Shown: positions 401 to 22,144 of the stretch, in pieces
How positions within the stretch are numbered: the first letter of the stretch is position 1
Layout of the letters: each line of letters starts with the position of its first letter
Source of the DNA: Thermoanaerobaculia bacterium
GTDB taxonomy: Bacteria > Acidobacteriota > Thermoanaerobaculia > Multivoradales > UBA5704
Direction of reading: 5' to 3'
NCBI GenBank assembly: GCA_044226625.1
Contig: JBGAGQ010000073.1
Coordinates: 1-30,130 of the forward strand
DNA length: 30,130 bases
Notes under the pieces: generated by a model
Databases searched by the model: none
What the model was told of the DNA's origin: nothing
The model's input: only the letters and a program-made list of their open reading frames with translations
Program-made: the position numbers and the translations under genes

Positions 401-697
401 ATGGCACGGAGGCAGCGGCGTCACTTTTCCCCTGATTTCAAAGCGGAGGCCGTCCGGTTGGTTGCGGCGGGCAATCGCTCGCTGAGCGCGATCGCTCGGG
501 ACCTGGACTTGGCCCCGAAGTCTCTTCGGCAGTGGAGGACCGAAGCTGAAAACGAGGCCCATCCCTCTCCGACCGGTCCTCTGACCAACGCGGAGCGCGA
601 GGAGCTCGTGCGACTTCGCCGGGAGAACCGACGGCTGGAGATGGAGAGAGAAATTTTAAAAAAAGCGGCGGCCTTCTTCGCGAGGGAGAACGAATGA
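401..697 (+). CDS. IS3 transposase OrfA (HTH)
   Basis: RRHFSPDFKAEAVRLV...IARDL...LRQW...LRRENRRLEMEREILKKAAAFF, typical of IS3 OrfA. GGAGG RBS upstream. Confidence 0.95.
   Translation: MARRQRRHFSPDFKAEAVRLVAAGNRSLSAIARDLDLAPKSLRQWRTEAENEAHPSPTGPLTNAEREELVRLRRENRRLEMEREILKKAAAFFARENE
656..665 (+). other. -1 programmed ribosomal frameshift site (A7G) producing OrfAB
   Basis: TTA AAA AAA G in the OrfA frame. orfB lies in the -1 frame and overlaps the orfA stop as ATGA (694-697). Confidence 0.8.
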
Positions 698-2151: not shown

Positions 2152-4575
<2,424 letters not shown>

Positions 4576-4999
4576 GAAATTCTCCCTCACCCGGGGTTGG
4601 TACGGCCCGAGTCGGTCGTTGATTGCCTGGGGTGGATCGCCGGGCTCTCGGTCGCACGCTACCCCGCGGATCTCCCGCGGCTTGCGGCCTCCGCAAGGCG
4701 ATCGGGATTCCGAGGACAGGGCGATGCCCGACGTGTTGCGCGGATTCTAGGGTTTAGACCCTTTCCCACGCAAGGAACCCGCCCGGCGGGCGGCGCCCGG
4801 ATGCACGGCAAAGACCGGGAGCGGAGGCGCATTCCGCCGGTCCGCGGGGTCCGCGGAACGGGTCGAGCCGGACCCTCCCGGCGGGCGGGGCGCCGTTTTG
4901 GTGCCGTGGTAAATAAAGCAGGTGCGATATGATTCTTTCGTGATTCCGTTGGCCCAACCTCCGGTCGCAAGCTTCTTCGACGGAAAGGGCCCGGGGCGG

Positions 5000-8298: not shown

Positions 8299-8465
8299 GC
8301 GGCGAAAGCTGCCGGGGAAGGGATCGCGCTCGGCGCGGCTCTCACCTCGCGCGCGGATCGGCTCGAGCGCGAACTATCGGCGAACGAAGGGGCGGCGAAC
8401 GAAGGGGCGGCGAACGAAGGGGCGGCGGACGAAGGGGCGGCGAACGAAGGAGCGGCGGGCGTTGA
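8295..8465 (+). CDS. Possible 56-aa Arg/Gly-rich peptide with GERRG repeats
   Basis: Its ATG overlaps the upstream stop (ATGA 8295-8298) and its TGA overlaps the downstream TTG start (TTGA 8462-8465). Codon usage is atypical. Confidence 0.3.
   Translation: MSGESCRGRDRARRGSHLARGSARARTIGERRGGERRGGERRGGGRRGGERRSGGR
8378..8457 (+). repeat. 15-bp tandem repeat, 5 copies (CGGCGAACGAAGGGG)
   Basis: Units start at 8378, 8393, 8408, 8423 (1 mismatch) and 8438 (ends AAGGAG), plus a partial CGGCG. Confidence 0.95.
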
Positions 8466-9550
8466 CGGTCGAGGAGATCCCCGGCGAGCTGTTCTCCCGG
8501 TTTCCGCTCGGGATCGTCCTGGTCGACGAGGCCGGGACGGTGACGCGGATCAGCCGAGAGGCGAGCGAAGCGCTCGGTCACGCGCCGGGCTCGCTGGTGG
8601 GGACTTGCGTCGACGACCTGGTCGGCCGGCATCACGGGCTGGTCGAAAGCCTGAAGCGTCTTGCGCCCGGTACCGAGCGCCGGACCTCCTTCCGAGTGCG
8701 TCAGGCCAGCGGCTCGGAGCGGGAGCTGGGGCTCACCCTGGTCGCCTTCGAGACCGGCGCCCCGCCGTTCGCCTATGCGCTGATCGTGGGCGACCTCGGG
8801 CGCCTGCGTGAGGTCGAGCTCGACGTCCGGCGGTTCGAGCTCCTGGGTAGCTCGCTGCGGATCACCAGCGGCCTCGCCCACGTGCTGAGGAACCCGCTCG
8901 CGGCGATCCTCGGCTTCGCCGAGCTGCTCTCGTTCGAGCTGCCTCGCGATTCGGTGCACTGCGAGGACGCCGAGCGCATCCTCGCCATGGTCGGGCGCAT
9001 CGACGGGTTGATCAGCTCGTGCATGCGGCTTTCGCCGAGCGGCGCGCGGCGGATCGAGGTCGATCCGCTCATCGTGGTCGGCGCCGCGAGCGCGGCGCTC
9101 GCGGCGCGGTTTCCCGGCCTTCCGGCTCCCGGCCTGGCGATCGACGAGCCGCCGCCGCCGCTTTTCGTCGATCGCGAGCAGGCGGTCGAGGCGCTCTCGG
9201 CCCTGTTCGAAAACGCGGTCGAGGCGGCGGGCGGCGACGGAGCCCGGTTCGAGGTCGCCATCTCGGTCGAGCGGGGCGCGAGCGGACCGCCGTACGTGCG
9301 CCTGGCCGTGCGCGACGCGGGACCGGGGTGGGACGGGCTCGATCCGGCCCGCCTGTTCGATCCGTTCTTCACCACCAAGCCCGGGCACGTCGGGCTCGGC
9401 CTGGCCGTGGCTCAGGCGCTCGCGGTCGAGAACCGGGGGTTCATCGAGGCCGCGGGCCGCCCCGGAACCACGACGTTCTCTCTCGTGCTGCCCGCCGCCG
9501 GGCCGGGAAGGACGAAAGCTCCCGGAGCGGCGGAGAGCGCGTCGCCATGA
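8462..9550 (+). CDS. Cytoplasmic PAS histidine kinase (NtrB-like)
   Basis: N-terminal PAS (FPLGIVLVDEAGTV), H-box LAHVLRNPL, LFENAVEA, RDAGPG, FDPFFTTK, GLGL. TTG start 9 nt after AAGGAG. Confidence 0.88.
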   Translation: MTVEEIPGELFSRFPLGIVLVDEAGTVTRISREASEALGHAPGSLVGTCVDDLVGRHHGLVESLKRLAPGTERRTSFRVRQASGSERELGLTLVAFETGAPPFAYALIVGDLGRLREVELDVRRFELLGSSLRITSGLAHVLRNPLAAILGFAELLSFELPRDSVHCEDAERILAMVGRIDGLISSCMRLSPSGARRIEVDPLIVVGAASAALAARFPGLPAPGLAIDEPPPPLFVDREQAVEALSALFENAVEAAGGDGARFEVAISVERGASGPPYVRLAVRDAGPGWDGLDPARLFDPFFTTKPGHVGLGLAVAQALAVENRGFIEAAGRPGTTTFSLVLPAAGPGRTKAPGAAESASP

Positions 9551-10359
9551 AAGGCCCGCTCCTCCTCGTCGACGACGGGCAGGCGGAGATCGCCGATCTG
9601 GTGCAGATGTACGCCCTGAGCCTCACGAGCGGCCGGCTGGAGGTCCGTGAGGGAGATTGCCGCGGAGAGATCTGGTTCGAGCGGGGGCGGATCGTCCACG
9701 CGCAGGCGGGAGATCTCGAAGGGGACGAGGCGTTCTATCTCCTGATGACCTGGAGCGCCGGTGAGGTGGCGCTCAGCCGGGACTCCGCCCGGGCACCCCG
9801 AGCGACGATCGGGACCAGCTGGCAGCATCTCCTGCTCGAGGGGGCGCGGCGGATGGACGAAGGAGGACGCGAAAGTTACGATTTGGGGGAGGATCCCGAG
9901 GAGCCCGACGATCTTTCGCTCCGGTTCGGCCGGACCGGAGCGCTCGAGCCGGCGGGCGACGCGGCGGCCTTCGATACCCTCGAAACGGGAAACGGCATGG
10001 CAAACATCGAAGAAGGACTCCAGCGGCTGGCCGAGCTGGACGGCTTCGTCGGCGCCTGCTTGGTCGACAGCCACAGCGGTACCCTGGTGGGCTCACAAGG
10101 AGGGGGAAGCTTGAGCCTGGAGGCGGCGGCCGTCGGAAATTCCAAGGTCATCCGGGCCAAGCGGCAGACGATCTCGACGCTTCACCTCAAGGATTCGATC
10201 GAGGACATCTTGATCACCCTGGGCCGGCAGTACCACCTGATCCGGCCGATCGCGACGAACGAGGAGCTCTTCCTCTATCTCGTGCTCGACAAGACGCGCG
10301 CCAACCTCGCCCTCGCGCGTCACAAGCTGGCGGACACCGAGCGGGGCTTCGCGAGGTGA
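9547..10359 (+). CDS. DUF4388 (PATAN/PatA_N-like) domain fused to a roadblock/LC7-like domain
   Basis: IADLVQM..SGRLEV..GEIWFERGRIVHAQ..GDEAFYLLMTW..LLLEGARRMDE (DUF4388 pattern). The C-terminal 120 aa from Met 9997 are paralogous to 10591-10953. ATG overlaps the upstream stop. Confidence 0.85.
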   Translation: MKGPLLLVDDGQAEIADLVQMYALSLTSGRLEVREGDCRGEIWFERGRIVHAQAGDLEGDEAFYLLMTWSAGEVALSRDSARAPRATIGTSWQHLLLEGARRMDEGGRESYDLGEDPEEPDDLSLRFGRTGALEPAGDAAAFDTLETGNGMANIEEGLQRLAELDGFVGACLVDSHSGTLVGSQGGGSLSLEAAAVGNSKVIRAKRQTISTLHLKDSIEDILITLGRQYHLIRPIATNEELFLYLVLDKTRANLALARHKLADTERGFAR

Positions 10360-10590: not shown

Positions 10591-10953
10591 ATGGCAAACA
10601 TCAAAGAGAGTCTGCAGAGCCTTGCCGAAATCGAGGGTTTCATCGGCGCCTGCCTCACCGACAGCAACAGCGGCATGATGATGGGTGCCGAAGGGGGAGG
10701 CACTCTCAACATGGAAACCGCGGCCGCCGGCAATACGGAGGTCGTCCGCGCCAAGCGCAAGACGATCGCCTCGCTCGGCCTCAAGGACAACATCGAGGAC
10801 ATCCTGATCACGCTGGGCCGGCAATACCACCTGATCCGCCCGCTGGCCACCCGCGAGGGCCTGTTCATCTACCTCGTGCTCGACAAGGGGCGTTCGAACC
10901 TCGCCTTGGCTCGCTTGCGCCTGGCCGACGCGGAGCGTGATCTCGTCGTTTGA
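10591..10953 (+). CDS. Roadblock/LC7 (MglB-like fold) protein
   Basis: Strong RBS CAGGAGG. GFIGACLTDSNSGMM, AAAGNTEVVRAK, IEDILITLGRQYHLIRP, LFIYLVLDK..NLALAR. Confidence 0.85.
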   Translation: MANIKESLQSLAEIEGFIGACLTDSNSGMMMGAEGGGTLNMETAAAGNTEVVRAKRKTIASLGLKDNIEDILITLGRQYHLIRPLATREGLFIYLVLDKGRSNLALARLRLADAERDLVV

Positions 10954-11004: not shown

Positions 11005-11373
11005 ATGGCGACTGAAAAAGACTACGCGGAGTTCTTCAACAAGATCGATGCCGAGATCTCGGGCCTGATCGCGGCTTCGGTCGTCGATCTCGAGTCGGGT
11101 ATGACGCTGGCCGTCCGCTCCAATCGGCAGGATTTCGATCTCTCGACGGCGAGCGCGTACAACAGCGAGATGGTCAAGATGAAGCTCAAGACCATCCAGG
11201 CGTTGGGACTTCGATCGGCGCTCGAGGACATGCTGCTCACGCTGTCCGACCAGATCCACCTGATCCGCTTGATCTCGCCCTCCGCATTCGTCTACATCGC
11301 CGTCGACAAAGCGAAGAGCAACCTCGCCATCGTTCGCACCGTGGTGGCGAAGCACGCCACGGCTCTCGCCTGA
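11005..11373 (+). CDS. Roadblock/LC7-like protein, more divergent paralog
   Basis: RBS GGGAGG. GLIAASVVDLESGMTL, ASAYNSEMVKMK, LEDMLLTLSDQIHLIR, FVYIAVDKAKSNLAIVR align to the preceding protein. Confidence 0.85.
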   Translation: MATEKDYAEFFNKIDAEISGLIAASVVDLESGMTLAVRSNRQDFDLSTASAYNSEMVKMKLKTIQALGLRSALEDMLLTLSDQIHLIRLISPSAFVYIAVDKAKSNLAIVRTVVAKHATALA

Positions 11374-11425: not shown

Positions 11426-12904
11426 ATGGCGCGACTGGATTCCGAGCGAGAGTGTCTGGTCGTCCGCATCGTGTACGACGGCACGGCCTTGTCGGGCAAG
11501 ACCACGACGGTCAGGGCCCTCGGCGCGAGCCTCGTCCGCGACGTCGAAACCCCGGTCGAAGAAGCCGGGCGTACGCTCTATTTCGACTGGCTCGATTACA
11601 CGGGGGGGCGGTTCGACGGATTCCCGATCCGCTGCCAGATCGTCACCGTTCCCGGCCAGGCCGCGTTGGCCCGTCGTAGAGAGAAGCTGATCGAGGACGC
11701 CGACGCGGTCGTCTTCGTCGCCGACACCTCGGCCGACGGCTACGGGCCGAGCTTGGAGGCGTTGGGCGAAGCGATCGGCCACCTGGGACGGCGGAGCCCG
11801 CCGGTCGGCTTGGTCGTCCAGGCGAACCAGCGCGACCGCGCCGACGCCGTGCCGATCGAGACCGTGCGCGCCGATTGCGCAGCCCTTTCCAAGACCCTCG
11901 CGGTGACCGAATCGTCGGCGTTGACCGGATACGGGGTGCGCGAGACGTTCGTCCTCGCCGTGCGTCTGGCGCTCGACCGGGTGCGCGAGCTCAAAGGGGA
12001 GCGCCAGCTCGAGGTCGGGCGCCCGGACGTGGACGACGCGGTCCAGCTGCTCGCCGCCCTGCGGGCGGCCGATGCCTCGGCGGGCGCTTCCGACGCCCCG
12101 GGGATCGCGGAGAGGACGCCGGAGACCTGGGAGCGGCGGAAGACGCCGCGTCCGGCGTCCGAGGGGTCGTTTCCGCGCAACGCGCCATGGCCTCCCGACG
12201 CCTCCGTGCCGAGCGGCCTGATCTGGCCGCCGATGACCGGGCGGATGATCCTGCACGATTGGACCGAGCGCTCGATCGTGCCGATCCGCCTGGGCGACGG
12301 CTCCTGGGGCTACGAGGAGCCGGCCTGGCGCCTCCGTTCGGATCTCGAGGACCTGTATTTCGATTTCGACGAGGGGCGCGCCGCGCTGATCGAATGGGCC
12401 CGGCACCACGCCGCGCTCGGATCTCTCCTCTCCTCCCGTCGCGCGATCGTCCTCGCCCGTGCCGCGCCCGGTGCCTGGCGTCTTTGGCAGTTGGTCGCCC
12501 GCCTCCCCTCGCTCGAGGCGGAAGTCGCCGAGGCGATCGCGGGGGGCGCCACCCGGGCGATCGCGAGCTCCCTGCTGGGGGCCGCCAAGAAATGCCTCGA
12601 TTTCGAGGGCCGGTTCGCCGGCACTCCGATCGGCGGCCGAGCCTCCCTCGCCGATGTCGTGATCGAGGACGGCACGGCGGTCTTCGGCGGCCTCTTCCCT
12701 CGCCTCGGGCAGCTCGAAGAGCGGTCGGAGACGTCGGCGGGCGAGATCCTTCGCCGCTATCTCGGCGAGATCGTGAAGCGCTTCGTCGTCGCCGCGGAGC
12801 GGGAGAAGGGTCTCGAGGTTACGGTCGGGATCCGCCGGCTCGCCGAGCAGCGCGGTTGGCCCGGTATCGGCGAAGTCCTCTGCCGCCTCTTTCCGTCCGC
12901 CTGA
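11426..12904 (+). CDS. mglA: MglA-like small GTPase with ~300-aa C-terminal extension
   Basis: IVYDGTALSGKTT (G1), RTLYFD (G2), TVPGQ (G3), DAVVFVAD, NQRD (variant G4), SALTGYGVRETF (G5). These are the MglA-family motifs, followed by a linker and an unassigned domain. Confidence 0.85.
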   Translation: MARLDSERECLVVRIVYDGTALSGKTTTVRALGASLVRDVETPVEEAGRTLYFDWLDYTGGRFDGFPIRCQIVTVPGQAALARRREKLIEDADAVVFVADTSADGYGPSLEALGEAIGHLGRRSPPVGLVVQANQRDRADAVPIETVRADCAALSKTLAVTESSALTGYGVRETFVLAVRLALDRVRELKGERQLEVGRPDVDDAVQLLAALRAADASAGASDAPGIAERTPETWERRKTPRPASEGSFPRNAPWPPDASVPSGLIWPPMTGRMILHDWTERSIVPIRLGDGSWGYEEPAWRLRSDLEDLYFDFDEGRAALIEWARHHAALGSLLSSRRAIVLARAAPGAWRLWQLVARLPSLEAEVAEAIAGGATRAIASSLLGAAKKCLDFEGRFAGTPIGGRASLADVVIEDGTAVFGGLFPRLGQLEERSETSAGEILRRYLGEIVKRFVVAAEREKGLEVTVGIRRLAEQRGWPGIGEVLCRLFPSA

Positions 12905-13273: not shown

Positions 13274-14575
13274 GTGGTCAAAGAGAGCGTGGGATTTCTC
13301 GAGGAGGCGGTTCAGGCCGCGAAGCGAGGCGACTCGGGCGGCGCGCGGAGCCTTCTGCTCCGGGCGAGCGAGAGCGAGCCGGACAACGAGCTGATCTGGC
13401 TCTGGCTCGCGCACCTGTCGACCTCGCCCGCCGACAAGACGAGCTACCTGCGCCGGGTCCTGGCGATCCATCCCGGCCACGAGGTCGCCCGCGCCGAGCT
13501 CGCCGACGTCCTGCGCGCCGAGGGGGTCGCCCTGGCCCGGGCGGGCTCGCGACGGCGCGCCCGCGAGCTGCTCGAAGGCTCTCTCGCGCTCGACGAGGGG
13601 AAAGAGGATTCCTGGCTCTGGCTCGCGGCGGTCGCCGAAACCCGGGAAGAGCGCCGCCGGTGCCTCAAGAAGGTGCTCGAGATCAATCCGCGCCACCGCC
13701 ACGCCCTCGCCCTGCTCGATCTGCCGGAGCTGCGCGATCCCACGAAGCCGGCCGCTCCGGGCGCCGAGACGCCGAACGCCGAGCCGAGCGGGTCGGCCGC
13801 CCCGAGCGGATCGTTCGCGCCGAAACGCTGCCCGTTGTGTCGCGGCGTCGGCTTCACCGGCGAGCGCTGCTCCTGGTGTCGGGCGCATTTCTCGCTCGGC
13901 GACCTGCGCGCGTTGGTGCGCAATGCCGAGGTCGATCGCGACCTGGTGGCCGCGGGGCTCCGCCGCCTCGCCGGCCTGCCGGGGGGCGCGGAGAATTTCG
14001 ACGTGCAGTTCGTCCTCGGCCTCGGGTACCTGAACCTCGGCCGGCTCGACGAGGGGATCCACGCGCTGGAAGGCGCGAGCCGGTTGCGCCCGGGGGACGG
14101 CCTGATCGCGACCCAGCTCGACGTCCTCAAGCTCTGGCGCCGGGGCAAGCCGACGTCCAAGCCCGTTCGCCGCGGCCGCGTGCTGGCGGTCGACGACAGC
14201 CCGACGGTGCTCAAGCTGGTGGCGAGCAGCCTGGAGCCGCACGGCTTCGAGGTCGAGGCGGCCGCGGCGGGCCTCGAGGCGCTCGCCCGCCTGCGCGAAG
14301 CCAAGCCGGATCTGGTCCTGCTCGACATCAACCTGCCGGGCATGGACGGCTATCAGGTCTGCAAGATCATCAAGTCCGATCCCGTCCTCAAGTCGGTGCC
14401 GGTGGTCTTCCTGTCCGGGCGCGGAGGGCTGTTCGATCGCATGCGCGGCCGGCTCGCCGGATCTTCGGACCACGTCCAGAAGCCCTTCGAGCCGCAGGCG
14501 CTGCTCGAGCTCGTCGAGCGCTTCGTCGCCGCGGGACGCGAGCCGGGCGCCGCGGGAGCCGCGCGGACGGCTTGA
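13274..14575 (+). CDS. TPR repeats + CxxC/CxxC zinc ribbon + TPR + PilG-like receiver
   Basis: Two WLWLA-type TPR repeats and CPLC..CSWC. C-terminal REC VLAVDDS, LLDINLPGMDGY, GGLFDRMRGRLAGSSDHVQKPF resembles the PilG GLFDxARGRxxG signature. Confidence 0.88.
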   Translation: MVKESVGFLEEAVQAAKRGDSGGARSLLLRASESEPDNELIWLWLAHLSTSPADKTSYLRRVLAIHPGHEVARAELADVLRAEGVALARAGSRRRARELLEGSLALDEGKEDSWLWLAAVAETREERRRCLKKVLEINPRHRHALALLDLPELRDPTKPAAPGAETPNAEPSGSAAPSGSFAPKRCPLCRGVGFTGERCSWCRAHFSLGDLRALVRNAEVDRDLVAAGLRRLAGLPGGAENFDVQFVLGLGYLNLGRLDEGIHALEGASRLRPGDGLIATQLDVLKLWRRGKPTSKPVRRGRVLAVDDSPTVLKLVASSLEPHGFEVEAAAAGLEALARLREAKPDLVLLDINLPGMDGYQVCKIIKSDPVLKSVPVVFLSGRGGLFDRMRGRLAGSSDHVQKPFEPQALLELVERFVAAGREPGAAGAARTA

Positions 14576-15063: not shown

Positions 15064-15765
15064 TTGGACGGCGAGCCCGGCAACGGCGATCGAACGAACG
15101 AGCCCGAAGCGGCCGAGCCGCGCGGCTCCGGGGCGGAGCCTGCCCGCGCCGTGCCGCTCGAGGAGTGGATCGGCCGCCTGGAGGCCGATCTCGAGCGCGA
15201 CCGAGCGGGCTCGGCGGTGGAGCGGGGACCGGCCGCGGCGCCGCGCGCCCCGGCGCGGCGCGGCGCGAGCGCCGGGCGGTCGGTGCTCTTCGACCTCGGC
15301 GGAACGCGTTCGGCGCTCCCCATCGACCGGGTCTTCGAGGTGGGCGAGGTGCCGAAGATCACGCCGGTGCCGAACGTCCCCCGCTGGCTCGCGGGAGTCG
15401 TCAACCTGCGCGGCGACGTCCTCGCCGTGGTCGACCTGCGGGCGCTGGTGGGGCTGTCGCCGTTCGATCGCGAGAGCCGGCCGGGGCGACTCCTGGTGGT
15501 GCGCTCCGCGCCGGGCGCCGACGGCGAGGTCGCCGCGGGGCTCTGGGTCGACGCCGTGCTCGGCGTCGCCGAGCTTTCGCCCTCCGATCTCGCGCCGCCC
15601 GAAGGGCCGCTCGACGACGCGCTCGCGGCGCTGGTCGAAGGGGTGACCGTGCGCGACGGCCGGATGATCGCGGCGCTCGACCTCGACGCCCTGCTCGCGC
15701 ATCCGGAGCTGGCGCGGCTGCGCTCGGAAGGCGCGCCGCGAGGCTCCTCGCGAGCGAGATTTTGA
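15064..15765 (+). CDS. cheW: CheW-family coupling protein (PilI-like) with low-complexity N-terminal extension
   Basis: ITPVPNVPRWLAGVVNLRGDVLAVVDL, GLWVDAVLG, LDLDALL. Start codon (TTG) uncertain. Confidence 0.9.
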   Translation: MDGEPGNGDRTNEPEAAEPRGSGAEPARAVPLEEWIGRLEADLERDRAGSAVERGPAAAPRAPARRGASAGRSVLFDLGGTRSALPIDRVFEVGEVPKITPVPNVPRWLAGVVNLRGDVLAVVDLRALVGLSPFDRESRPGRLLVVRSAPGADGEVAAGLWVDAVLGVAELSPSDLAPPEGPLDDALAALVEGVTVRDGRMIAALDLDALLAHPELARLRSEGAPRGSSRARF

Positions 15766-15874: not shown

Positions 15875-18052
15875 ATGCTGAAGAATTGGAAGATTTGGCA
15901 GAAGTTGACGGCGATCGCGGTGACGATGGGTCTGATGATCCCGGTGCTGCTCTACCTCGCGGTCTCCACCCGCAACCAGGACATCGAGTTCGCGCGGAAA
16001 GAAAACGTCGGCGGCGAGTTCCTCAAGCCGCTCACCCTCCTGTTCGCCAAGCTTCCCGAACACCGCGGCCGAACGAACACGCTGCTCTCTGGCGATGCGG
16101 GCCAGCGGGAGGAGATCACCGCGGTCCGGGTGGAGATCGACCGGGATTTCGAGGCCCTGGCGGCGGTCGACCGCGTGGCGGGTAAGACGCTCGGAGCCAC
16201 CGAGGCGCTCGCCACGATTCGCCAAGGGTGGGAGGCCCTCAAATCCGGCGGCGAGCGGATGACCTCGGATCAAAACTTTGCCGCCCACACCCAACTCATC
16301 GCTAAGGTCTCGACGCTGATCGAAGACGTCGGCGACAGCTCGAACATCCGGCTCGATCCGGTTCGTGACACGTACTACCTGGGTGAGATCGTCCTGCTCT
16401 GGGGGCCTCGAGCGATCGAGAACCGGGGCCAGCTGCGCGGTCGAGCCGGTGGCGTGGTGGCGCGCGGCCGGGTAACGACCGACGAGGCGGCGGAGCTCAG
16501 CTTGTTGATCGCCCAGCTGAACTCGTCGAGCGCGCCGGTCGAGCGCGCCGTCCGGTTGGTCGTCGAGGACAACCCGGACTTCGCCGAAAAGGCCAACGGC
16601 CTCGCCAAAGACGCGGAGGAAAAGACCCGGGCCTTCGCCCAAATGGTGCAGAACCGGATCCTTCGGGTCGCCGCGCCCACCGTTTCGACCAACGAGCTGT
16701 TTGCGGCCGGAAACGCCGCCGTCGACTCCCAGGCCGCTCTGTCCAACGCCATGGTCGACCGGCTCCAGATCGAGCTCGGTGACCGCGTTGCGACCCTCAC
16801 TCGCGCTCGCAATCTCTTGATCGCCGGCAGCCTCGCCTCCGCGCTCCTCGCGATCTTCCTGGTCGCCTACGTGACGGGTTTGATCACGCGCCAGGTCAAC
16901 GCCATCTCGAGCATGTTCCAGCACATCGGCATCGGCGATTTCGGCGCCCGCGCCCAGGCCTACTCGAACGACGAGCTGGGCGTGACGGCGGCTTCGATCA
17001 ACGCCGTCTTGGACAACACGATCGCCCTGATGCAGTCGCGCGACGAGCGCGACCGGATCCAAAGCAGCATCATGAAGCTGCTCGACGAGATCAGCGGCCT
17101 GGCCGAGGGCGACCTCTCGCGCGAAGCGGAGGTCACTGCGGACCTCACCGGCGCGATCGCAGACGCGTTCAACACGGTCACCGGCCAGCTGCGCGAGATC
17201 ATCGGCAACGTCCAAGAGACGACTCTCCAGGTCAGCTCGGCGGCGAGCGAGATCCAGACCACGACGGAGCATCTGGCCGACGGCTCGGAGTCGCAGTCCG
17301 GCCAGATCGTCGACACCTCCGCGGCGGTCGACGAGATCGCGCTCTCGATTCAACAGGTATCGGAGAACGCGACCTCGGCGGCGGGCGTCGCCGACCTCGC
17401 CCTTTCGGCCGCCCGGCAGGGCGCCGACGCGGTGTCCCGGACGGTCGACGGGATGAACGGCATCCGCGTGCAGGTACAGGAGTCCGCCAAGCGCATCAAG
17501 CGACTGGGCGAAAGCTCCCAGGAGATCGGCGAGATCGTCCAGCTGATCGGCGACATCGCCGACCGAACCAGCATCCTGGCGCTCAACGCCTCGATCCAGG
17601 CCGCGATGGCCGGCGAGGCGGGGCGCGGATTCGCGGTCGTCGCCGAAGAGGTCGAGCGCCTCGCGGTCCGCTCCGCCGATGCCACCAAGCGGATCGGCTC
17701 GCTGATCCGCACGGTCCAGAGCGAGACCCACGAAGCGGTGCGCGCGATGGAGGACACGACGCGCGAAGTGGTCTCGGGCTCCGGCCTCGCGAACGCCGCG
17801 GGCCAGGCGCTCGGCGAGATCCAGTCGGTCTCGGGCCGCCTCGCCGAGCTGATCCAGTCGATCTCGATGGCGGCCAAGCAGCAGGCACGCGGCTCGGATT
17901 CCGTGGCCAAAGCGATGGGCGACATCTCGGAGAACACGCAGCAGACCGCCGCGGGCACCAAGCAGGTGGCGGTGTCGATCAAGAACCTGGCCGAGCTCGC
18001 CGACAACCTGCGCGAGTCGGTGGCGGCGTTCCGCCTGCCGGCCCGGGGCTGA
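15875..18052 (+). CDS. Methyl-accepting chemotaxis protein, PilJ-like (2 TM, helical periplasmic sensor, 2 HAMP)
   Basis: [37 protein letters not shown] hairpin. [32 protein letters not shown] and [18 protein letters not shown] are PilJ-type. No C-terminal pentapeptide. Confidence 0.95.
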
Positions 18053-18074: not shown

Positions 18075-19013
18075 ATGATGCGTGGGTCGATGGACATCGA
18101 TCGGCCGGAGCTTTTGCTCCACGAGGCCGCGCTGTGGCGCTCGGCGATCGCCGGGCGCTGCGGGCTCGACTTCGGCGAGGGGCGGGAAAAGAGCCTCTCG
18201 CGCGGCCTGTGGGGCCGGGCGCGCGAGGTGGGCGTCAGCTCGTACGCCGAATACCGGCGCTACCTCGCCGCCGACGGTCGCGAGTGGCAGCGCCTGATCG
18301 AGCGGCTGGTCAATCACGAAACCCGCTTCTGGCGCCACGCGCCCTCCTTCGAATACCTCACCGAGGTGGCGCTGCCGACGCTGCGGCGGGAGCGGGCGCA
18401 GCGAGGGGATTTGCGGCCGATCGTCCTCTGGAGCGCCGGCTGCTCGACCGGCGACGAGGCGTACTCCCTCGCGATGGCGGGCCTGGCGGGGGCACCGGTT
18501 CTGGCGCCGGGAGGGAAGGCTCCTTCGTCCGGGGCGGTGCGTGTCCTCGGCACCGATCTTTCGGAAGCCGCGATCGAGCGCGCCCGCGCCGGCCGCTACG
18601 CCGAGCGTTCGGTCGCGTCGTTGCCGCCCGGCTTCGCGCGCCGATTCCTGATCGAGACGAAAGAGGCGGAAGGGGGCGATCGCCGGCGTCCTTTCGCGGT
18701 CCGCCCCGAAGTGCGCGCGGTGACCTCGTTTTGGTGCGCGAGCTTGGTCGCGTCCGGGGGAGAGGGCGTGCCGGCCGAGCCGGTCGACGTGATCTATTGC
18801 CAGAACGTCCTGCTTTATTTCCAACCCGAGGTGCGCCTCGACGTGGTTCGCCGCCTGGCGCGGCGTCTCGCGCCGGGCGGCTATCTGATTCTCGCCCCGG
18901 GCGAGATCGTCGGTCTCCGCCTGCCGGAGCTCGAAGGTCCGCGCTCCTCGTCGGCCGCGGTTTACCGGCGGGTCTCGTCGTCCGAGGCCGTACGAGCCGC
19001 GGAGGAGAGCTGA
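18075..19013 (+). CDS. cheR: Chemotaxis methyltransferase CheR (PilK-like)
   Basis: NHETRFWRH, WSAGCSTGDEAYSLA, GTDLS, DVIYCQNVLLYF, LAPGGYL. Confidence 0.93.
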   Translation: MMRGSMDIDRPELLLHEAALWRSAIAGRCGLDFGEGREKSLSRGLWGRAREVGVSSYAEYRRYLAADGREWQRLIERLVNHETRFWRHAPSFEYLTEVALPTLRRERAQRGDLRPIVLWSAGCSTGDEAYSLAMAGLAGAPVLAPGGKAPSSGAVRVLGTDLSEAAIERARAGRYAERSVASLPPGFARRFLIETKEAEGGDRRRPFAVRPEVRAVTSFWCASLVASGGEGVPAEPVDVIYCQNVLLYFQPEVRLDVVRRLARRLAPGGYLILAPGEIVGLRLPELEGPRSSSAAVYRRVSSSEAVRAAEES

Positions 19014-22000
19014 TGGCGCGTCCGATCGATCCGGAAATCCTCGCCGGCTTCCTCGCCGAGGTGCGCGGCTACCTGCCGCGGATCGCGAGCGCGCTCGCCG
19101 GGGCGCGCGACGGCGACCGAGACCCCAAGGCGTTCGCCGAGGCGTATCGCCTGATGCACAGCATCAAAGGGGCGAGCTCGATGATCGGCCTCGCCGGCCT
19201 GTCGCACATCGCCTTCTACGCCGAGCAGCTGCTCGACGAGCTGCAGCTCGGCGAGCGGATCCTGGACGATCCGCTCACCCGCTTGCTCGGCGCGCTGCTC
19301 GACCGGATCGACGCCACGATCGACGGCATCGACAGCGCCGGCGGTGCGGGCGACGGCGAGCTCGCCTCGCGCGAGAGGCTCGCCGCGACGGTGGCCGAGT
19401 GCCGCCGGCTGCGCGGCCTGCCGCCGGAAGGCGACGCGGCCGAGCTCGAATCGCTGCTCGAGGCCGGGAAGGGGGCGCCGCCGGTCGAAGGTCTCTCGTC
19501 GGCGTCTCCGGCGGTCGAGGAGCCGCAAGCCGGCGGACCGAGCCCGTTCGAGGAGGAGACCCTTCCCGATCTTTCGATGCTCGACTTCGACGCCCTTCCG
19601 TCGGCCCGGGAGCCCGTCCGTGAGTCGATTCGCGAATCGAAACGACCGGCGATCGCCGCGGACCTCCTCGAGACCTTCCTCGAAGAAGCCGAGGTCCACC
19701 TCCAAGCGATCGCCGGGGCGCTGCGCGCCCTGTCGGCCGACGCCGCGGATCGCTCGGCGCTCCTGTCCGTGCGGCGCAGCGTCCATACCTTGAAAGGTGC
19801 GGCGAGCCTGGTCGGCTTCGGCGACCTGGCGCGCATCGCCCACCGCATGGAGGACCTCCTCGATTCCCTCGCGGACGGCGGCGAGGAGCCTTCGGAATCC
19901 GACCTCCAGCTCCTGTTCCGCACCACGGACGCGCTCGAAGATCTGGCGGCGGGCGGCACGCCGGCCGACCTGGCGGAGATCGCCGAGATCGCCGAGCTCG
20001 CCGGCCGCTACGACGCGCGCCTCGGAGACGGCGAGCCGTCCGCCGCGCCTGCGCCGCTACGCCTGGCTCCTCCGCTCGACCCTGGGCCCTCGTTGCGCCT
20101 CGCGAGCTTCCTCGAGCGCTCGGCTCCGGAGGAGCCCGTCGGGGATCTCGGGGATCTTAGGGATCGCGCCGATTCCTCGGGCGATTCGATGACCGCTGGG
20201 AGCAGCGATCGGTCCGCCGATCGCACGACGGACCGAATGACGGATCGAATGGCGGATCGAACCTCCGATCGCATGGCGGGGCCGACGCTCCGCGTGCCGC
20301 TCGAGCGGCTCGACGACGTCGTCCGTCTGGCGAGCGAGCTGGTGGTCCATCGCTCGGTCTTCGAGCGTCACGTGGCGGAACTGCAGCGCCGGGTCGACGA
20401 GATGATCGCGAGCCACGAGCGGCTGCGGCGTCTCGCCGGGCGGCTCGAGGCCGACTACGAGGTGCGCGCCCTTCTCGGCGTCGCGGCGGTCGGCTCCGGC
20501 GTGGCTCCGGTGGGTGTCGGCGCCTCGGGCTTCGAGGCTCCCTCCGGGTTCGATCCGCTCGAGCTCGACCGCTACACCGAGTTTCACCTGCTGTCGCGGG
20601 AGCTGGCCGAGACGGCGAGCGACCTCTCGGCGGTAGGCGTCGAGATCACGTCGTCGCTGGTCGATTTCGACGGCGACCTGACGCGTCTCGGGCGCCTTTC
20701 GAGCGACGTCCAGAACCGGCTGATGCGTCTGCGCATGGTGCCGCTCGCGCAGCTCGCCTCGCGGCTCCATCGGACGGTCCGCGTGACCGCGGAGCAGGAG
20801 GGCAAGCAGGTCGACCTGGAGATCGTGGGCGAGACGGTCGAGATCGACAAGACCGTGCTCGAAGAGCTGGCGGACCCCTTGCTTCATCTGCTGCGCAACG
20901 CGGTCGCCCACGGCATCGAGCCCGCGGCGCTGCGCAGCGCGACCGGCAAGCCCGCTCGGGGACGCATTCGCGTCCACGCGATCTACGAGGGAACGCAGGT
21001 CACCGTGCGGGTGAGCGACGACGGTGCGGGGATGGACCCGCAAGGGCTGATCGCCGCGGCGCTCGCCGCGGGACGGATCACGGAGGAGGCCGCCGCGACG
21101 CTCTCCGAAGAGCAGGCGATCGACCTCGCCTTCCTACCCGGTCTTTCGACCGCGGGCGCGCTCTCCGAGGTCTCGGGGCGCGGCGTCGGGCTCGACGTCG
21201 TGAAGGCCGGCGTCCACCGCGCCAAGGGGAACGTCTCGGTCCGCTCCGCGCCGGGGCTGGGCACGACGTTCTCGATCCGCCTGCCGATGAGCCTCGCGGT
21301 CGCGAAGGTGCTCATGGTGCGTTCGCGGGGCGAGACGTTCGCCGTGCCCCTCGCCTCGGTCGCCCAGATCCTGCGGGTCGACCGCTCGGCGGTCGAGACG
21401 TTCGGTCGCGAGCCGGTCATCTCGCTCGACGGCAAGGTCTACCCCTTCCTCGACCTCGGCGAGCGCTTGCGGCTCGGTGGCGCTCCGGAGGAGCCCGCCG
21501 CCCAGGTGCCGGTCCTGTTCCTCTCGTTGGGAGAACGCAAGGCGGCGCTCGCGGTCGATCAGGTCGGCCAGGCGCGCGAGGTGGTCGTCAAGCCGCTCGG
21601 ACCGCTGCTCGGCCGGGTTCCGGGCATCTCGAGCGCCACCCTCTCGGGCGACGGCGAGGTGGTGCTGATCGTCAACCCGTCCGAGCTGGTGGGCATCGAT
21701 CCGGGCGCCGGGTTCGAGGTCGACGCCACGTCCGGGCCGTCGACCGCCGCGCCGCCGCGCCCGATCGAGGTCATGGTGGTCGACGATTCGCTCTCGGTGC
21801 GGCGCGTGCTGGGCAACCTGATCCACGGCGCGGGGTGGCGCGCGGTTCCGGCCCGCGACGGCCTCGAGGCGCTCGAGCTGCTCCAGGAGGGGGACCACGA
21901 TCCCGACGTGCTCCTGCTCGACATCGAGATGCCGCGGATGGACGGCTACGAGCTCACGGCGACGTTGCGCGGCATGCCGGAGTTCGCGGGTCTGCCGATC

Positions 22001-22144
22001 GTCATCCTGACCTCGCGGGCGGGCGAGAAGCACCGGCAGCGCGCCTTCGAGCTCGGCGCCACGGAATACCTGGTCAAGCCGTACGAGGACGCGACCCTGC
22101 TCGCGGTGGTCCGGCGGCTCGCTCGCGAGGCGCGCCCGACGTGA
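19013..22144 (+). CDS. cheA: CheA/ChpA-like hybrid kinase (2 Hpt, dimerization, HATPase, CheW, REC)
   Basis: Hpt1 MHSIKG, Hpt2 VHTLKG, LRVPLERLD, PLLHLLRNAVAHGIE, SDDGAG, SGRGVGLDVV, CheW domain, C-terminal REC LLDIEMPRMDG..KP. ATG overlaps the cheR stop. Confidence 0.96.
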   Translation: MARPIDPEILAGFLAEVRGYLPRIASALAGARDGDRDPKAFAEAYRLMHSIKGASSMIGLAGLSHIAFYAEQLLDELQLGERILDDPLTRLLGALLDRIDATIDGIDSAGGAGDGELASRERLAATVAECRRLRGLPPEGDAAELESLLEAGKGAPPVEGLSSASPAVEEPQAGGPSPFEEETLPDLSMLDFDALPSAREPVRESIRESKRPAIAADLLETFLEEAEVHLQAIAGALRALSADAADRSALLSVRRSVHTLKGAASLVGFGDLARIAHRMEDLLDSLADGGEEPSESDLQLLFRTTDALEDLAAGGTPADLAEIAEIAELAGRYDARLGDGEPSAAPAPLRLAPPLDPGPSLRLASFLERSAPEEPVGDLGDLRDRADSSGDSMTAGSSDRSADRTTDRMTDRMADRTSDRMAGPTLRVPLERLDDVVRLASELVVHRSVFERHVAELQRRVDEMIASHERLRRLAGRLEADYEVRALLGVAAVGSGVAPVGVGASGFEAPSGFDPLELDRYTEFHLLSRELAETASDLSAVGVEITSSLVDFDGDLTRLGRLSSDVQNRLMRLRMVPLAQLASRLHRTVRVTAEQEGKQVDLEIVGETVEIDKTVLEELADPLLHLLRNAVAHGIEPAALRSATGKPARGRIRVHAIYEGTQVTVRVSDDGAGMDPQGLIAAALAAGRITEEAAATLSEEQAIDLAFLPGLSTAGALSEVSGRGVGLDVVKAGVHRAKGNVSVRSAPGLGTTFSIRLPMSLAVAKVLMVRSRGETFAVPLASVAQILRVDRSAVETFGREPVISLDGKVYPFLDLGERLRLGGAPEEPAAQVPVLFLSLGERKAALAVDQVGQAREVVVKPLGPLLGRVPGISSATLSGDGEVVLIVNPSELVGIDPGAGFEVDATSGPSTAAPPRPIEVMVVDDSLSVRRVLGNLIHGAGWRAVPARDGLEALELLQEGDHDPDVLLLDIEMPRMDGYELTATLRGMPEFAGLPIVILTSRAGEKHRQRAFELGATEYLVKPYEDATLLAVVRRLAREARPT
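20207..20278 (+). repeat. Six degenerate 12-bp coding repeats (DRxx)6 in the CheA linker
   Basis: DRSA DRTT DRMT DRMA DRTS DRMA, encoded by GAY-CGN-based 12-mers. Confidence 0.8.

What the first reader, a model, noticed from the sequence alone, without database searches (positions are those of the whole stretch)
11426..12904. MglA-like GTPase fused to a possible pseudokinase domain
Seen: a ~190-aa MglA domain, a Pro/Ala-rich linker, then ~240 aa with no recognisable family motif. Canonical MglA is a stand-alone protein of ~195 aa. Inference: WRLWQLVARLPSL resembles a kinase beta5-hinge and ASLADVVIEDGTAVFGGL resembles a decayed catalytic loop/beta7-beta8/DFG segment. That would make this a GTPase-pseudokinase fusion, loosely analogous to Roco architecture.
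Basis: partly seen in the sequence, partly recalled or inferred. Interest (0 to 1): 0.72.

Follow-up and report, generated by a model that had tools for sequence, protein, structure and literature searches.

The report
Long MglA GTPase with unknown tail
This gene joins a Ras-like switch protein of the MglA type to a conserved tail domain that matches no known family, and the same design, always beside two small helper genes, recurs in hundreds of soil bacteria, so it is probably an undescribed cell-polarity or motility switch.

Summary
ORF 11426-12904(+) encodes 492 aa: an MglA-type G domain (aa 12-186, E 9.5e-21 to T. thermophilus MglA), a variable Pro/Ala linker, and a conserved C-terminal domain of about 240 aa.

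The fusion is a family, not an accident. There are 615 near-length homologues. All 80 genome loci are fused. Of 80 metagenome loci found through the C-domain alone, 72 are fused and the other 8 are cut by a contig end.

In 77 of 80 loci two small paralogous, probably Roadblock/LC7-like genes lie just upstream. This window adds a PATAN-Roadblock fusion gene and a full Che cluster.

The G domain keeps every MglA catalytic residue at 99% or more.

The C-domain has no Pfam, PDB or profile-profile match to kinases (0.3-0.6%, against 95% for the control). It has no conserved Lys, Asp, Glu or Asn.

My co-evolution analysis gives a contact topology compatible with a kinase-like bilobal fold, but that is not proof.

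Verdict: a real, widespread, apparently undescribed long-MglA module. The pseudokinase reading remains open, at about 0.35.

The parts
11426..12904 (+). Whole gene: 492-aa long MglA-family GTPase (G domain + linker + conserved C-terminal domain)
   Evidence: ORF and translation. 615 near-length homologues with E<=1e-3. The fusion is kept in 80 of 80 genome loci.
11459..11983 (+). MglA-type G domain core (aa 12-186). The G module with its conserved trailing helix runs to about aa 212 (nt 12061).
   Evidence: phmmer against PDB: 3t12 MglA E 9.5e-21. In about 340-360 family sequences G19, G24, K25, T26, R49, T50, D54, P76-G77-Q78, N134, D137 and A165 are conserved at 99% or more; position 74 is S/T in 90%.
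12062..12187 (+). Variable Pro/Ala-rich linker (aa ~213-254)
   Evidence: Unconserved and gap-rich in the 40-sequence alignment A1.
12188..12901 (+). Conserved C-terminal domain (aa 255-492) of unassigned family. The conserved core is aa 257-363: GxIWPPxxGR, W294, S305, R318, WARxH 324-328, S336, R339, RLWQ 352-355.
   Evidence: 361 representative clusters at E<=1e-3. 27 columns are conserved at 85% or more; none is D/E/K/N and all but P425 lie in 257-363. No Pfam or PDB match.
11005..11373 (+). RblB: 122-aa small protein, probably Roadblock/LC7-like
   Evidence: 42% identical to RblA. A homologue lies upstream of the GTPase in 77 of 80 loci. Family profile against a Robl_LC7 profile: hhalign 63%, E 6.8e-5, 108 columns.
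10591..10953 (+). RblA: 120-aa small protein, probably Roadblock/LC7-like, very conserved
   Evidence: 74% mean column identity across 24 sequences from three phyla. 4 of the 120 listed homologues are named 'Roadblock/LC7/MglB family' by JGI. The Pfam Robl_LC7 HMM itself does not hit it.
9547..10359 (+). PATAN (DUF4388)-Roadblock-like fusion gene, 270 aa. Its ATG overlaps the stop of the upstream histidine kinase.
   Evidence: DUF4388 at aa 14-105, E 6.2e-18. aa 151-270 are 70% identical to RblA. ATGA overlap. The same in-frame fusion occurs in 19 other loci.
8462..9550 (+). PAS-HisKA-HATPase histidine kinase
   Evidence: Pfam.
13274..14575 (+). TPR + receiver-domain response regulator
   Evidence: Pfam Response_reg 3e-27 plus TPR families.
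15064..15765 (+). CheW
   Evidence: Pfam CheW 5.8e-31.
15875..18052 (+). Methyl-accepting chemotaxis protein (HAMP + MCPsignal)
   Evidence: Pfam.
18134..22144 (+). CheA-type hybrid kinase (Hpt, dimerisation, HATPase, CheW, REC)
   Evidence: Pfam.
21835..23262 (+). CheB (REC + methylesterase). The true start probably lies downstream of the listed ORF start.
   Evidence: Pfam CheB_methylest 9e-64.
23266..24276 (+). Protein with two CheW matches
   Evidence: Pfam CheW, 2 stretches.
24289..25326 (+). REC-PATAN (DUF4388) response regulator
   Evidence: Pfam. An orthologue lies directly downstream of the GTPase gene in L001 and L002 (tblastn 1e-134 and 6e-131).

Best explanation
The gene encodes a member of a widespread family of long MglA-type GTPases that I could not find described.

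Shown:
- The N-terminal G domain keeps all nucleotide-binding residues and the MglA-specific catalytic set: the Arg-Thr pair in switch I, the Ser/Thr-x-Pro-Gly-Gln G3 motif and NKxD.
- A flexible linker ties it to a conserved domain of about 240 aa. That domain has no conserved acidic or lysine residue. Its conserved residues (Trp, Arg, His, Ser, Gln) all lie in its first ~110 residues.
- The gene almost always follows two small paralogous genes. In a subset of loci, including this one, a PATAN-Roadblock fusion gene is added.

Inferred:
- The G domain is a working GTP/GDP switch.
- The two small proteins are Roadblock/LC7-like and form a hetero-dimeric regulator (GAP and/or GEF) of the G domain, as the MglB dimer does for MglA.
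- The C-terminal domain is a non-catalytic output or docking domain. It reads the nucleotide state in cis or anchors the switch to a partner. Its fold may be kinase-like.
- In this genome the module is wired into a Che-type pathway (MCP, three CheW-domain genes, CheA-REC, CheB, TPR-REC, REC-PATAN). It probably sets cell polarity for type IV pilus-dependent movement, as Frz acts through MglA/MglB in Myxococcus.
For: G domain:
- E 9.5e-21 to solved MglA.
- Catalytic and binding residues are conserved at 99% or more in about 340-360 sequences.

Fusion conserved:
- 615 homologues with E<=1e-3 among 8000 scored.
- 361 representative clusters for the C-domain alone.
- 258 of 325 pooled distinct sequences are 450-549 aa.
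- G and C are both present in 80 of 80 genome loci.
- 72 of 80 metagenome loci found by a C-domain motif are fused in frame. The other 8 have at most 471 nt before the contig end.

Small paralogues:
- Found upstream in 77 of 80 loci.
- 78 loci have two Rbl-like places and 32 have three or four, out of 152 loci with any hit.
- Roadblock relationship: hhalign 63%, E 6.8e-5 over 108 columns; JGI names.

PATAN:
- Window gene 9547-10359.
- In-frame PATAN-Rbl fusions in 19 loci.
- PATAN near the module in 30 of 80 genome loci and 7 of 80 metagenome loci.

Context and literature:
- Che cluster and REC-PATAN downstream.
- The own genome has 6 PilT-family genes above cut-off and a separate canonical mglB-mglA pair.
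- PATAN-MglA/MglB gene neighbourhoods are noted in PMC4316618 (passages).
- PATAN binds PilB1 and PilC in Synechocystis, preprint 10.1101/2021.06.11.447907 (passages).

C-domain: no conserved D/E/K/N.
Against: - No function was tested. The motility and polarity role is inferred only from context and analogy.
- CheW and MCP genes lie beside the module in only 1 of 80 genome loci (L005, the closest relative). The Che link is therefore lineage-specific. Most Myxococcota loci instead have histidine kinases and receivers nearby, and those are generic hits.
- The Pfam Robl_LC7 model does not hit the small proteins. A family profile finds no Roadblock structure in the PDB. hhalign at 63% is only moderate.
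- Whether the small proteins act on the G domain or on the C-domain is unknown.
- The C-domain also exists as a stand-alone paralogue in this genome and in relatives, so it can work without a fused G domain.
- Distribution among relatives is patchy: 15 of 41 genomes.
Confidence: 0.6

Rival explanations
1. The C-terminal domain has a protein-kinase-like bilobal fold that has lost every catalytic residue: a pseudokinase. It acts as a scaffold or allosteric module controlled by the fused GTPase, a Roco-like logic built on an MglA-type G domain. This rivals only the identity of the tail. It is compatible with the rest of the best explanation.
For: - Crude secondary structure from the alignment gives strands, a long helix (309-333), two strands (340-344, 351-358), two helices, two strands (406-411, 418-423) and three helices. 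That is the order beta3-alphaC-beta4-beta5-alphaD-alphaE-beta7-beta8-helices.
- plmDCA on 396 sequences (Meff 326) gives these top couplings:
  - 342-356: hairpin.
  - 317-343, 321-343, 324-355: the long helix packs on both strands.
  - 302-359, 305-352, 310-350: strand 300-310 lies beside 350-359.
  - 364-409, 362-412, 362-421: the segment after the second strand touches the 404-424 hairpin.
  - 412-421: hairpin.
  - 331-401, 335-418: the helix end touches the later sheet.
  - 304-423.
- Most of these survive mean-field DCA without the window's own clade.
- The same method on the G domain returns top-20 pairs that fit the Ras fold as I recall it.
- Size (about 240 aa) is in the range of minimal kinase folds (recalled).
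Against: - No sequence signal: Pfam none at E<=10 for the window and for 51 members; PDB profile search none.
- hhalign 0.5-0.6% to 29 Pkinase, 0.4-0.6% to 4 APH and 0.3% to 3 ABC1 sequences, while APH against Pkinase gives 95%.
- Genome scans with the Pkinase, APH, Kdo, ABC1 and RIO1 models do not hit this gene.
- No conserved Lys, Asp, Glu or Asn and no Gly-rich loop.
- The strongest couplings include an N-terminal strand (259-263) beside 340-342. That is not part of the canonical kinase N-lobe.
- The strand 300-310 / 350-359 pairing, the most kinase-specific feature, is weak (z about 4).
- In the joint analysis 8 of the top 30 couplings were inter-domain, so up to about a third of the high-scoring pairs may be spurious.
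- The match to kinase topology was made from memory, not against coordinates, and is open to confirmation bias.
Confidence: 0.35
2. The C-terminal domain is a platform of the Roadblock/longin kind, or another small alpha/beta docking fold. It stacks on the RblA/RblB dimer, giving an arrangement like the Rag GTPases (G domain plus C-terminal roadblock domain) sitting on Ragulator.
For: - The architecture is parallel: a G domain with a C-terminal domain, plus a pair of Roadblock-like paralogues in one operon.
- The first ~110 residues have an alpha-beta-beta-alpha-beta-beta order.
- The review PMC3747258, seen only as title and abstract in the listing, describes Roadblock and longin platforms for GTPases.
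Against: - hhalign of the C-domain against the Rbl family and against Robl_LC7 profiles gives 0.1-0.3%.
- The domain is twice the size of a Roadblock domain.
- The couplings give the 339-346 strand neighbours on both sides (259-263 and 350-359) and no third C-terminal strand directly after 350-359.
Confidence: 0.08
3. The C-terminal domain is an enzyme or small-ligand sensor of a new kind. It would use its invariant Arg, His, Ser and Gln residues (R273, S305, R318, R326, H328, S336, R339, R352, Q355), for example to bind a phosphorylated or nucleotide ligand.
For: Nine polar residues are conserved at 92% or more and cluster in aa 273-355. Many conserved arginines are typical of phosphate-binding sites (general knowledge).
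Against: - No conserved acidic residue or lysine, and no known motif.
- No family match in Pfam, NCBIfam, PADLOC or PDB.
- Conserved Trp- and Arg-rich surfaces are equally typical of protein-protein interfaces.
Confidence: 0.1

Closest known systems
MglA/MglB polarity module (Myxococcus xanthus, Thermus thermophilus; Group 1 MglA of Wuichet & Sogaard-Andersen 2014, PMC4316618)
   Same: - The G domain aligns over aa 12-186.
- The same hallmarks are present: Ser/Thr instead of Asp in G3, an intrinsic Arg in switch I, and the catalytic Gln.
- It is encoded next to small, probably Roadblock-like genes.
- It is linked to a Che-type system, and PATAN genes occur nearby as noted for some MglA/MglB loci.
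   Different: - Only about 28-33% identical to the genome's own MglA-like proteins, which are encoded elsewhere with a canonical MglB.
- 492 aa rather than about 195 aa.
- It carries a conserved extra domain.
- The partners are two distinct paralogues of about 120 aa that the Robl_LC7 Pfam model does not recognise.
- The survey that defined the MglA groups excluded sequences longer than 240 aa.
SofG and other extended MglA paralogues
   Same: An MglA-type G domain with extra sequence. This genome also has a 448-aa MglA with a long Pro/Ala-rich tail.
   Different: - SofG is 239 aa according to PMC4316618.
- The tail of the genome's 448-aa MglA is mostly low-complexity Pro/Ala sequence.
- Here the extension is a conserved domain of about 240 aa that also exists on its own.
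Roco proteins (Roc GTPase-COR, often with LRR and kinase)
   Same: A Ras-superfamily G domain fused to a further signalling domain in one chain. If the tail is kinase-like, the logic (a GTPase controlling a kinase-fold module in cis) would be similar.
   Different: - No COR or LRR was detected.
- The G domain belongs to the MglA clade. PMC4316618 places Roco in the other clade, which is not coupled to MglB.
- The domains are joined by a flexible linker.
- The tail has no catalytic residues.
Rag GTPases with Ragulator (eukaryotes)
   Same: A G domain with a C-terminal non-G domain that works with a pair of Roadblock-fold proteins (recalled; the abstract of PMC3747258 was seen in the listing).
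   Different: The C-domain shows no profile similarity to Roadblock (0.1-0.3%) and is twice as long. Homology is not claimed.
PatA-type (PATAN-REC) regulators of type IV pilus phototaxis systems in cyanobacteria
   Same: The window encodes a REC-PATAN regulator in a Che cluster, plus a PATAN-Roadblock fusion. The PATAN domain binds PilB1 and PilC in Synechocystis.
   Different: Those systems are not described with an MglA-type GTPase carrying this C-domain. Domain order here is REC then PATAN.

Membership tests
MglA family of Ras-superfamily small GTPases | P-loop G domain with the G1-G5 motifs | tested here: met
   GxxxxGKT (G19, G24, K25, T26), T50, PGQ 76-78, N134-x-x-D137 and A165 are conserved at 99% or more. 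The alignment to solved MglA has E 9.5e-21.
MglA family of Ras-superfamily small GTPases | Thr/Ser in place of the conserved Asp of G3. The feature is stated in the abstract of PMC3000849 (listing). | tested here: met
   Position 74 is T in the window. Across 344 sequences it is S 71%, T 19% and G 7%.
MglA family of Ras-superfamily small GTPases | Intrinsic arginine finger and catalytic glutamine (Group 1 mechanism; PMC4316618) | tested here: met
   R49 (99%) and Q78 (100%) align with the RT and PGQ of T. thermophilus MglA. Activity itself was not tested.
MglA family of Ras-superfamily small GTPases | Single-domain protein of about 150-240 aa | tested here: not met
   492 aa with a second conserved domain. 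The defining survey left out sequences over 240 aa.
MglA family of Ras-superfamily small GTPases | Gene coupled to an MglB (Roadblock/LC7) gene | tested here: inconclusive
   Small paralogues lie upstream in 77 of 80 loci. Their Roadblock identity rests on hhalign at 63%, E 6.8e-5 and a few JGI names. The Pfam model misses them.
Protein-kinase-like fold / pseudokinase (C-terminal domain) | Detectable sequence or profile relationship to a kinase-like family | tested here: not met
   Pfam none at E<=10. PDB none. hhalign 0.3-0.6% against a 95% control. Kinase HMM genome scans miss the gene.
Protein-kinase-like fold / pseudokinase (C-terminal domain) | Bilobal kinase fold (N-lobe sheet with the alphaC helix, hinge, C-lobe with beta7-beta8) | tested here: inconclusive
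The co-evolution contact topology is compatible, but it was compared with recalled topology only.
Protein-kinase-like fold / pseudokinase (C-terminal domain) | Catalytic Lys (beta3), Asp (catalytic loop) and Asp (DFG) for an active kinase | tested here: not met
   No D/E/K/N column is conserved at 85% or more in aa 250-490. D410 is variable. The domain is therefore not an active kinase.
Protein-kinase-like fold / pseudokinase (C-terminal domain) | Nucleotide binding | not testable with these tools
   This needs biochemistry.
Roco proteins | Roc G domain followed by a COR domain (usually with LRR) | tested here: not met
   Pfam finds only a weak Ras match and no COR or LRR. The G domain's best matches are MglA.
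Roadblock/LC7 (the small proteins RblA and RblB) | Match to the Robl_LC7 family model | tested here: not met
   No Pfam hit at E<=10. A genome scan with PF03259 hits other loci but not these.
Roadblock/LC7 (the small proteins RblA and RblB) | Profile-level homology over the whole ~110-aa domain | tested here: inconclusive
   hhalign of the 46-sequence family against 26 Robl_LC7 sequences: 63.4%, E 6.8e-5, 108 columns. A PDB profile search finds no Roadblock. P0121 alone has a weak hit to 7yh1, E 0.45.
Rag-like GTPase (G domain + C-terminal roadblock domain) | The C-terminal domain is a Roadblock domain | tested here: not met
   hhalign 0.1-0.3% to the Rbl and Robl_LC7 profiles.
PATAN (DUF4388) as identity of the C-domain | Profile similarity to DUF4388 | tested here: not met
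   hhalign 0.2% against 11 PATAN sequences of the own genome. No Pfam hit.

The most novel reading that the evidence does not exclude
A bacterial GTPase-pseudokinase signalling machine. An MglA-type switch is fused to a dead kinase-fold domain. It is regulated by a hetero-dimeric Roadblock pair and, in many lineages, tethered through a PATAN-Roadblock fusion to the type IV pilus motor. The kinase-fold domain docks in cis on the switch-I/beta2-beta3 face of the G domain. That would be a prokaryotic counterpart combining Roco and Rag/Ragulator design principles, spread over Acidobacteriota, Myxococcota and Steroidobacter-type Gammaproteobacteria.
Probability: 0.25. Interest if true: 0.85.

Novelty: new variant of a known kind. 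Interest (0 to 1): 0.62.

Why it matters
MglA/MglB is the model for how bacteria use a Ras-like switch to set front-rear polarity. The survey that defined the prokaryotic families set aside everything longer than 240 aa.

This family shows that a large group of soil bacteria carries a different build of that switch:
- It spans at least 361 clusters at 50% identity.
- 183 relatives turned up in a scan of one genome per species.
- The G domain is fused to a conserved domain of unknown fold.
- It is served by two distinct Roadblock-like proteins, often with a PATAN-Roadblock adaptor.

It gives a concrete, testable link between chemosensory or two-component signalling, Roadblock regulators, PATAN domains and a small GTPase. 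If the tail is a kinase fold, it would be a rare prokaryotic GTPase-pseudokinase pairing. Cultivable carriers exist, for example Povalibacter uvarum DSM 26723 and Steroidobacter flavus, so genetics is feasible.

Tried and rejected

Sequence routes for the C-domain that gave nothing:
- Pfam at E<=10.
- Pfam on 51 members: 11 families, each hit by 1-2 members, best E 0.02.
- NCBIfam.
- PADLOC: only E 0.033 noise.
- PDB profile: best E 0.67, retinaldehyde-binding protein.
- hhalign against Pkinase, APH, ABC1, Robl_LC7, the Rbl family and PATAN: all below 1%.
- The greedy hhalign alignments to Pkinase and ABC1 happen to place 339-346 and 350-358 on beta4 and beta5, and 404-423 on the catalytic loop and DFG. 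At P about 0.1-0.2 I do not count this as evidence.

Other dead ends:
- A third homologous-protein run (A3, near lengths) returned only 1 protein.
- A defence-system reading is rejected: no PADLOC match.
- A first pseudo-likelihood optimiser barely converged and was replaced by per-site plmDCA.
- The ladder-sum analysis could not tell parallel from antiparallel pairing, even in the G-domain control.
- Inter-domain couplings could not be separated from lineage effects.

Literature. I found no description of this fusion in these searches:
- MglA / small GTPases in prokaryotes / Roadblock / C-terminal.
- MglA / Acidobacteria / Roadblock / GTPase / fusion.
- MglA-like / C-terminal domain / chemosensory.
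- PATAN / MglA.
- small GTPase / Roadblock / pseudokinase / bacteria.
Subscription journals and supplements were not searchable. Supplementary table S2 of PMC4316618 may list long MglA-clade sequences.

Papers and what I saw of each:
- PMC4316618: passages and section 13.
- 10.1101/2021.06.11.447907: passages.
- PMC3000849, PMC3199381, PMC3747258 and PMC9481161: search listing and abstract start only.

Recalled, from no call: kinase (PKA) and Ras-fold topology, Rag/Ragulator architecture, the Chou-Fasman table used, and the Frz-MglA analogy beyond the abstracts.
Full report
OBSERVATION

The ORF at 11426-12904(+) is real. It starts with ATG, is 492 aa long and has no internal stop. GC3 is 0.86 in a window of about 70% GC.

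Residues 12-186 align to solved MglA proteins: T. thermophilus 3t12 at E 9.5e-21 and M. xanthus entries at about 1e-16. Pfam and NCBIfam see only sub-threshold Ras and small_GTP matches.

A 40-sequence alignment (A1) shows:
- a conserved helix after the G domain (P200 and L208 invariant);
- an unconserved, gap-rich Pro/Ala stretch (aa ~213-254);
- a conserved C-terminal region.

THE FUSION IS A FAMILY

- A near-length search found 615 proteins at E<=1e-3 among 8000 scored. The 120 listed are 443-538 aa, and nearly all cover 73-100% of the query.
- The C-terminal 257 aa alone found 361 representative clusters (50% identity) at E<=1e-3 and 214 at E<=1e-10. The match lies mostly in the C-terminal half of proteins of about 500 aa.
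- Of 325 distinct pooled sequences, 258 are 450-549 aa.
- A scan of one genome per species matched 200 stretches. Of these, 183 encode relatives, and 80 loci were kept.
- Record titles place them in Acidobacteriota (Thermoanaerobaculia, Holophagales, Vicinamibacteraceae), in Myxococcota (Polyangiaceae, Kofleriaceae, Sandaracinus, Nannocystaceae, Archangium) and in Gammaproteobacteria of the Steroidobacter group. The last group includes cultured strains.
- The closest loci are Thermoanaerobaculia and Acidobacteriota MAGs at 58-61% identity. The window is therefore probably acidobacterial (inference).
- All 80 loci carry G and C parts together.
- A scan of metagenome contigs with a C-domain motif alone matched 308 stretches. 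Of these, 214 encode relatives, and 80 were kept. 72 of the 80 are fused in frame to the G domain. The other 8 have at most 471 nt before the contig end.
- Among 41 related genomes including the window's own (G000), 15 have the C-domain. These include the own genome and 6 of the 7 other genomes of its genus.

NEIGHBOURS

In 77 of 80 genome loci the gene is directly preceded by homologues of two small window ORFs. These are RblA (10591-10953, 120 aa) and RblB (11005-11373, 122 aa). They are 42% identical to each other.

Both small families are very conserved: 74% mean column identity for RblA and 68% for RblB, across three phyla.

Their Roadblock/LC7 identity is probable but not settled:
- Against: Pfam does not recognise them. 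A genome scan with PF03259 hits four other places but not these. A family profile finds no Roadblock in the PDB.
- For: hhalign of the 46-sequence family against 26 Robl_LC7 sequences from 21 genomes gives 63.4%, E 6.8e-5 over 108 columns. JGI names 4 of the 120 listed homologues 'Roadblock/LC7/MglB family'. P0121 alone has a weak hit to a Roadblock structure, 7yh1, at E 0.45.

A third copy lies at 9997-10356 (70% identical to RblA). It is the C-terminal half of a 270-aa gene (9547-10359). The N-terminal half of that gene is a PATAN/DUF4388 domain (E 6.2e-18). Its ATG overlaps the stop of the upstream PAS histidine kinase.

The same in-frame PATAN-Rbl fusion occurs in 19 further loci. PATAN-like sequence lies near the module in 30 of 80 genome loci and 7 of 80 metagenome loci.

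Downstream genes in the window:
- TPR-REC, CheW, an MCP and a CheA-REC hybrid;
- CheB;
- a protein with two CheW matches, then REC-PATAN;
- a PAS-rich hybrid kinase.

Only the closest relative, L005, shares the CheW and MCP genes (1 of 80). In L001 and L002 the REC-PATAN gene follows the GTPase gene directly.

Elsewhere the genome has:
- a canonical mglB-mglA pair;
- a 448-aa MglA with a low-complexity tail;
- six PilT-family genes.

THE G DOMAIN

In about 340-360 family sequences G19, G24, K25, T26, R49, T50, D54, P76-G77-Q78, N134, D137 and A165 are conserved at 99% or more. Position 74 is Ser or Thr in 90%.

These are the MglA hallmarks: Thr or Ser for Asp in G3, an intrinsic Arg, and the catalytic Gln (PMC3000849 abstract; PMC4316618 passages). 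A working MglA-type GTPase is the natural reading. It is inferred, not assayed.

THE C-TERMINAL DOMAIN

By sequence it belongs to nothing known:
- no Pfam match at E<=10 for the window;
- only scattered noise across 51 members;
- no NCBIfam match and no meaningful PADLOC match;
- no PDB match with a family profile.

Profile-profile tests of specific ideas all failed:

| Target profile | hhalign probability |
|---|---|
| Pkinase (29 sequences) | 0.5-0.6% |
| APH (4) | 0.4-0.6% |
| ABC1 (3) | 0.3% |
| Robl_LC7 | 0.2-0.3% |
| Rbl family | 0.1% |
| PATAN | 0.2% |
| Control: APH against Pkinase | 95.2% |

Genome scans with the Pkinase, APH, Kdo, ABC1 and RIO1 models do not touch this gene.

Conservation is telling. 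27 columns are conserved at 85% or more. None is Asp, Glu, Lys or Asn, and all but P425 lie in aa 257-363. They are P257, G264, W267-P-P, G272-R273, L276, W294, W301, S305, R318, L321, W324-A-R, H328, S336, R339, L343, R352-L-W-Q, V357 and L363.

The 'decayed catalytic loop' Asp (D410) is variable. So the domain is not an active kinase. Its functional surface sits in the first ~110 residues.

The domain can stand alone. A 295-aa paralogue with all these residues is encoded at G000:C81 next to a HlyD-like gene. Relatives have similar short forms.

FOLD

Method and control:
- I pooled 407 sequences, aligned them to a hand-built HMM in window numbering, and ran per-site pseudo-likelihood DCA.
- On the G domain (344 sequences, Meff 202) the top pairs are 161-174, 15-94, 30-45, 99-131, 28-163, 13-94, 58-70 and 56-72. 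These are neighbours in the Ras fold as I recall it.

C-domain result (396 sequences, Meff 326). The leading pairs are:
- 317-343, 342-356, 261-342, 364-409, 362-421, 331-401, 412-421, 266-424, 304-423 and 420-466;
- 397-411, 335-418, 324-355 and 359-405;
- weaker: 302-359, 305-352 and 310-350.

Most of these remain in a mean-field run without the 15 sequences of the window's own clade.

Crude secondary structure was added (the propensity table is recalled). Together they give this picture:
- A strand 259-263 lies beside strand 339-346.
- Strand 339-346 hairpins to 350-359.
- Strand 350-359 lies beside 300-310.
- The long helix 309-333 packs on both hairpin strands.
- The segment just after (362-364) and the end of the long helix touch a second hairpin, 404-424.
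- That hairpin is backed by later helices.

Cautions:
- The comparison is with remembered topology.
- The extra N-terminal strand is not canonical.
- The most kinase-specific pairing is weak.
- In a joint G+C run, 8 of the top 30 couplings were inter-domain. Without the own clade the counts were 8 of 30, 12 of 50 and 31 of 100. Shuffled pairing gave 0 of 100. Up to a third of strong pairs may therefore be lineage artefacts.

I put the kinase-like fold at about 0.35.

A HINT

The top inter-domain couplings are 21-317, 57-293, 63-343, 20-262, 56-342, 68-324 and 74-367. They join the P-loop, switch-I and beta2-beta3 side of the G domain to the conserved N-terminal part of the C-domain.

That is the part of MglA said to move with the nucleotide state (PMC3199381 abstract). 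It could mean docking in cis, or it could be shared lineage history. I could not separate the two.

MECHANISM

Most likely: a GTP/GDP switch of the MglA type. Its cycle is set by an RblA/RblB hetero-dimer, by analogy with the MglB dimer. Its fused, non-catalytic tail is the output or docking element.

Where present, the PATAN-Rbl protein would tether the regulator to PATAN partners. In Synechocystis these are the pilus motor proteins PilB1 and PilC.

In this genome the module sits in one same-strand block with a Che pathway and a REC-PATAN regulator. It probably converts chemosensory output into pilus polarity.

Shown: architecture, conservation and gene linkage. Inferred: GTPase activity, Roadblock fold, GAP/GEF role, tail function and the motility link.

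NOVELTY

The G domain and its Roadblock coupling are a known kind. The following I found nowhere in five literature searches:
- the conserved tail domain;
- the pair of divergent Roadblock-like partners;
- the PATAN-Roadblock adaptor.

The defining survey dropped GTPases longer than 240 aa.

I rate the finding a new variant of a known kind, interest 0.62. It would rank higher if the tail proves to be a kinase fold.

Noticed in passing
window 9547-10359 (+): A 270-aa gene fuses a PATAN/DUF4388 domain (aa 14-105) to a Roadblock-like domain (aa 151-270; 70% identical to RblA). Its ATG overlaps the stop of the upstream histidine kinase. The same in-frame fusion is present in 19 other loci of the family.
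   Followed up: yes
G000:C81:118076-118813 (-) = L091 1255-2142 (-): A stand-alone 295-aa paralogue of the C-terminal domain with all conserved residues and no G domain. It lies upstream of a HlyD-like gene and near a GspH-like pseudopilin gene. Similar short forms occur in relatives, for example G004:C16:96260-96985, about 3 kb from the fused gene.
   Followed up: partly
G000:C132 = L090 994-2340 (-): A 448-aa protein: a canonical-looking MglA domain followed by about 200 aa of Pro/Ala-rich low-complexity sequence and a short conserved-looking C-terminus.
   Followed up: no
G000:C39:11948-13712 (-): A second cluster with two adjacent Robl_LC7 genes (E 3.8e-18 and 3e-3) and a PATAN gene next to them. 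It is another Roadblock-PATAN neighbourhood in the same genome.
   Followed up: no
window aa 16-74 of the G domain against aa 262-367 of the C-domain: Strong inter-domain covariation (21-317, 57-293, 63-343, 20-262, 56-342, 68-324, 74-367): 8 of the top 30 couplings in a joint analysis. It persists without the window's clade and is gone when the pairing is shuffled. It is either cis docking or a lineage effect.
   Followed up: partly
window 10591-10953 and homologues: RblA is unusually conserved for a 120-aa protein: 74% mean column identity across Acidobacteriota, Myxococcota and Gammaproteobacteria. That is far more than the fused C-domain, at 37%.
   Followed up: no
window 694-1566 (+): An IS3-type transposase ORF (rve integrase core, HTH_21) near the left end of the window, beside an H+-pyrophosphatase gene at 2152-4746(-).
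   Followed up: no
window 21835-22144: The listed CheB ORF overlaps the end of the CheA-REC ORF by about 300 nt in another frame. The real CheB start is probably further downstream.
   Followed up: no
window 25329-28772 (+) and 28811-29635 (+): A large hybrid kinase (four PAS matches, HisKA, HATPase, two REC stretches) and an MHYT-domain protein continue the same-strand signalling block after REC-PATAN.
   Followed up: no
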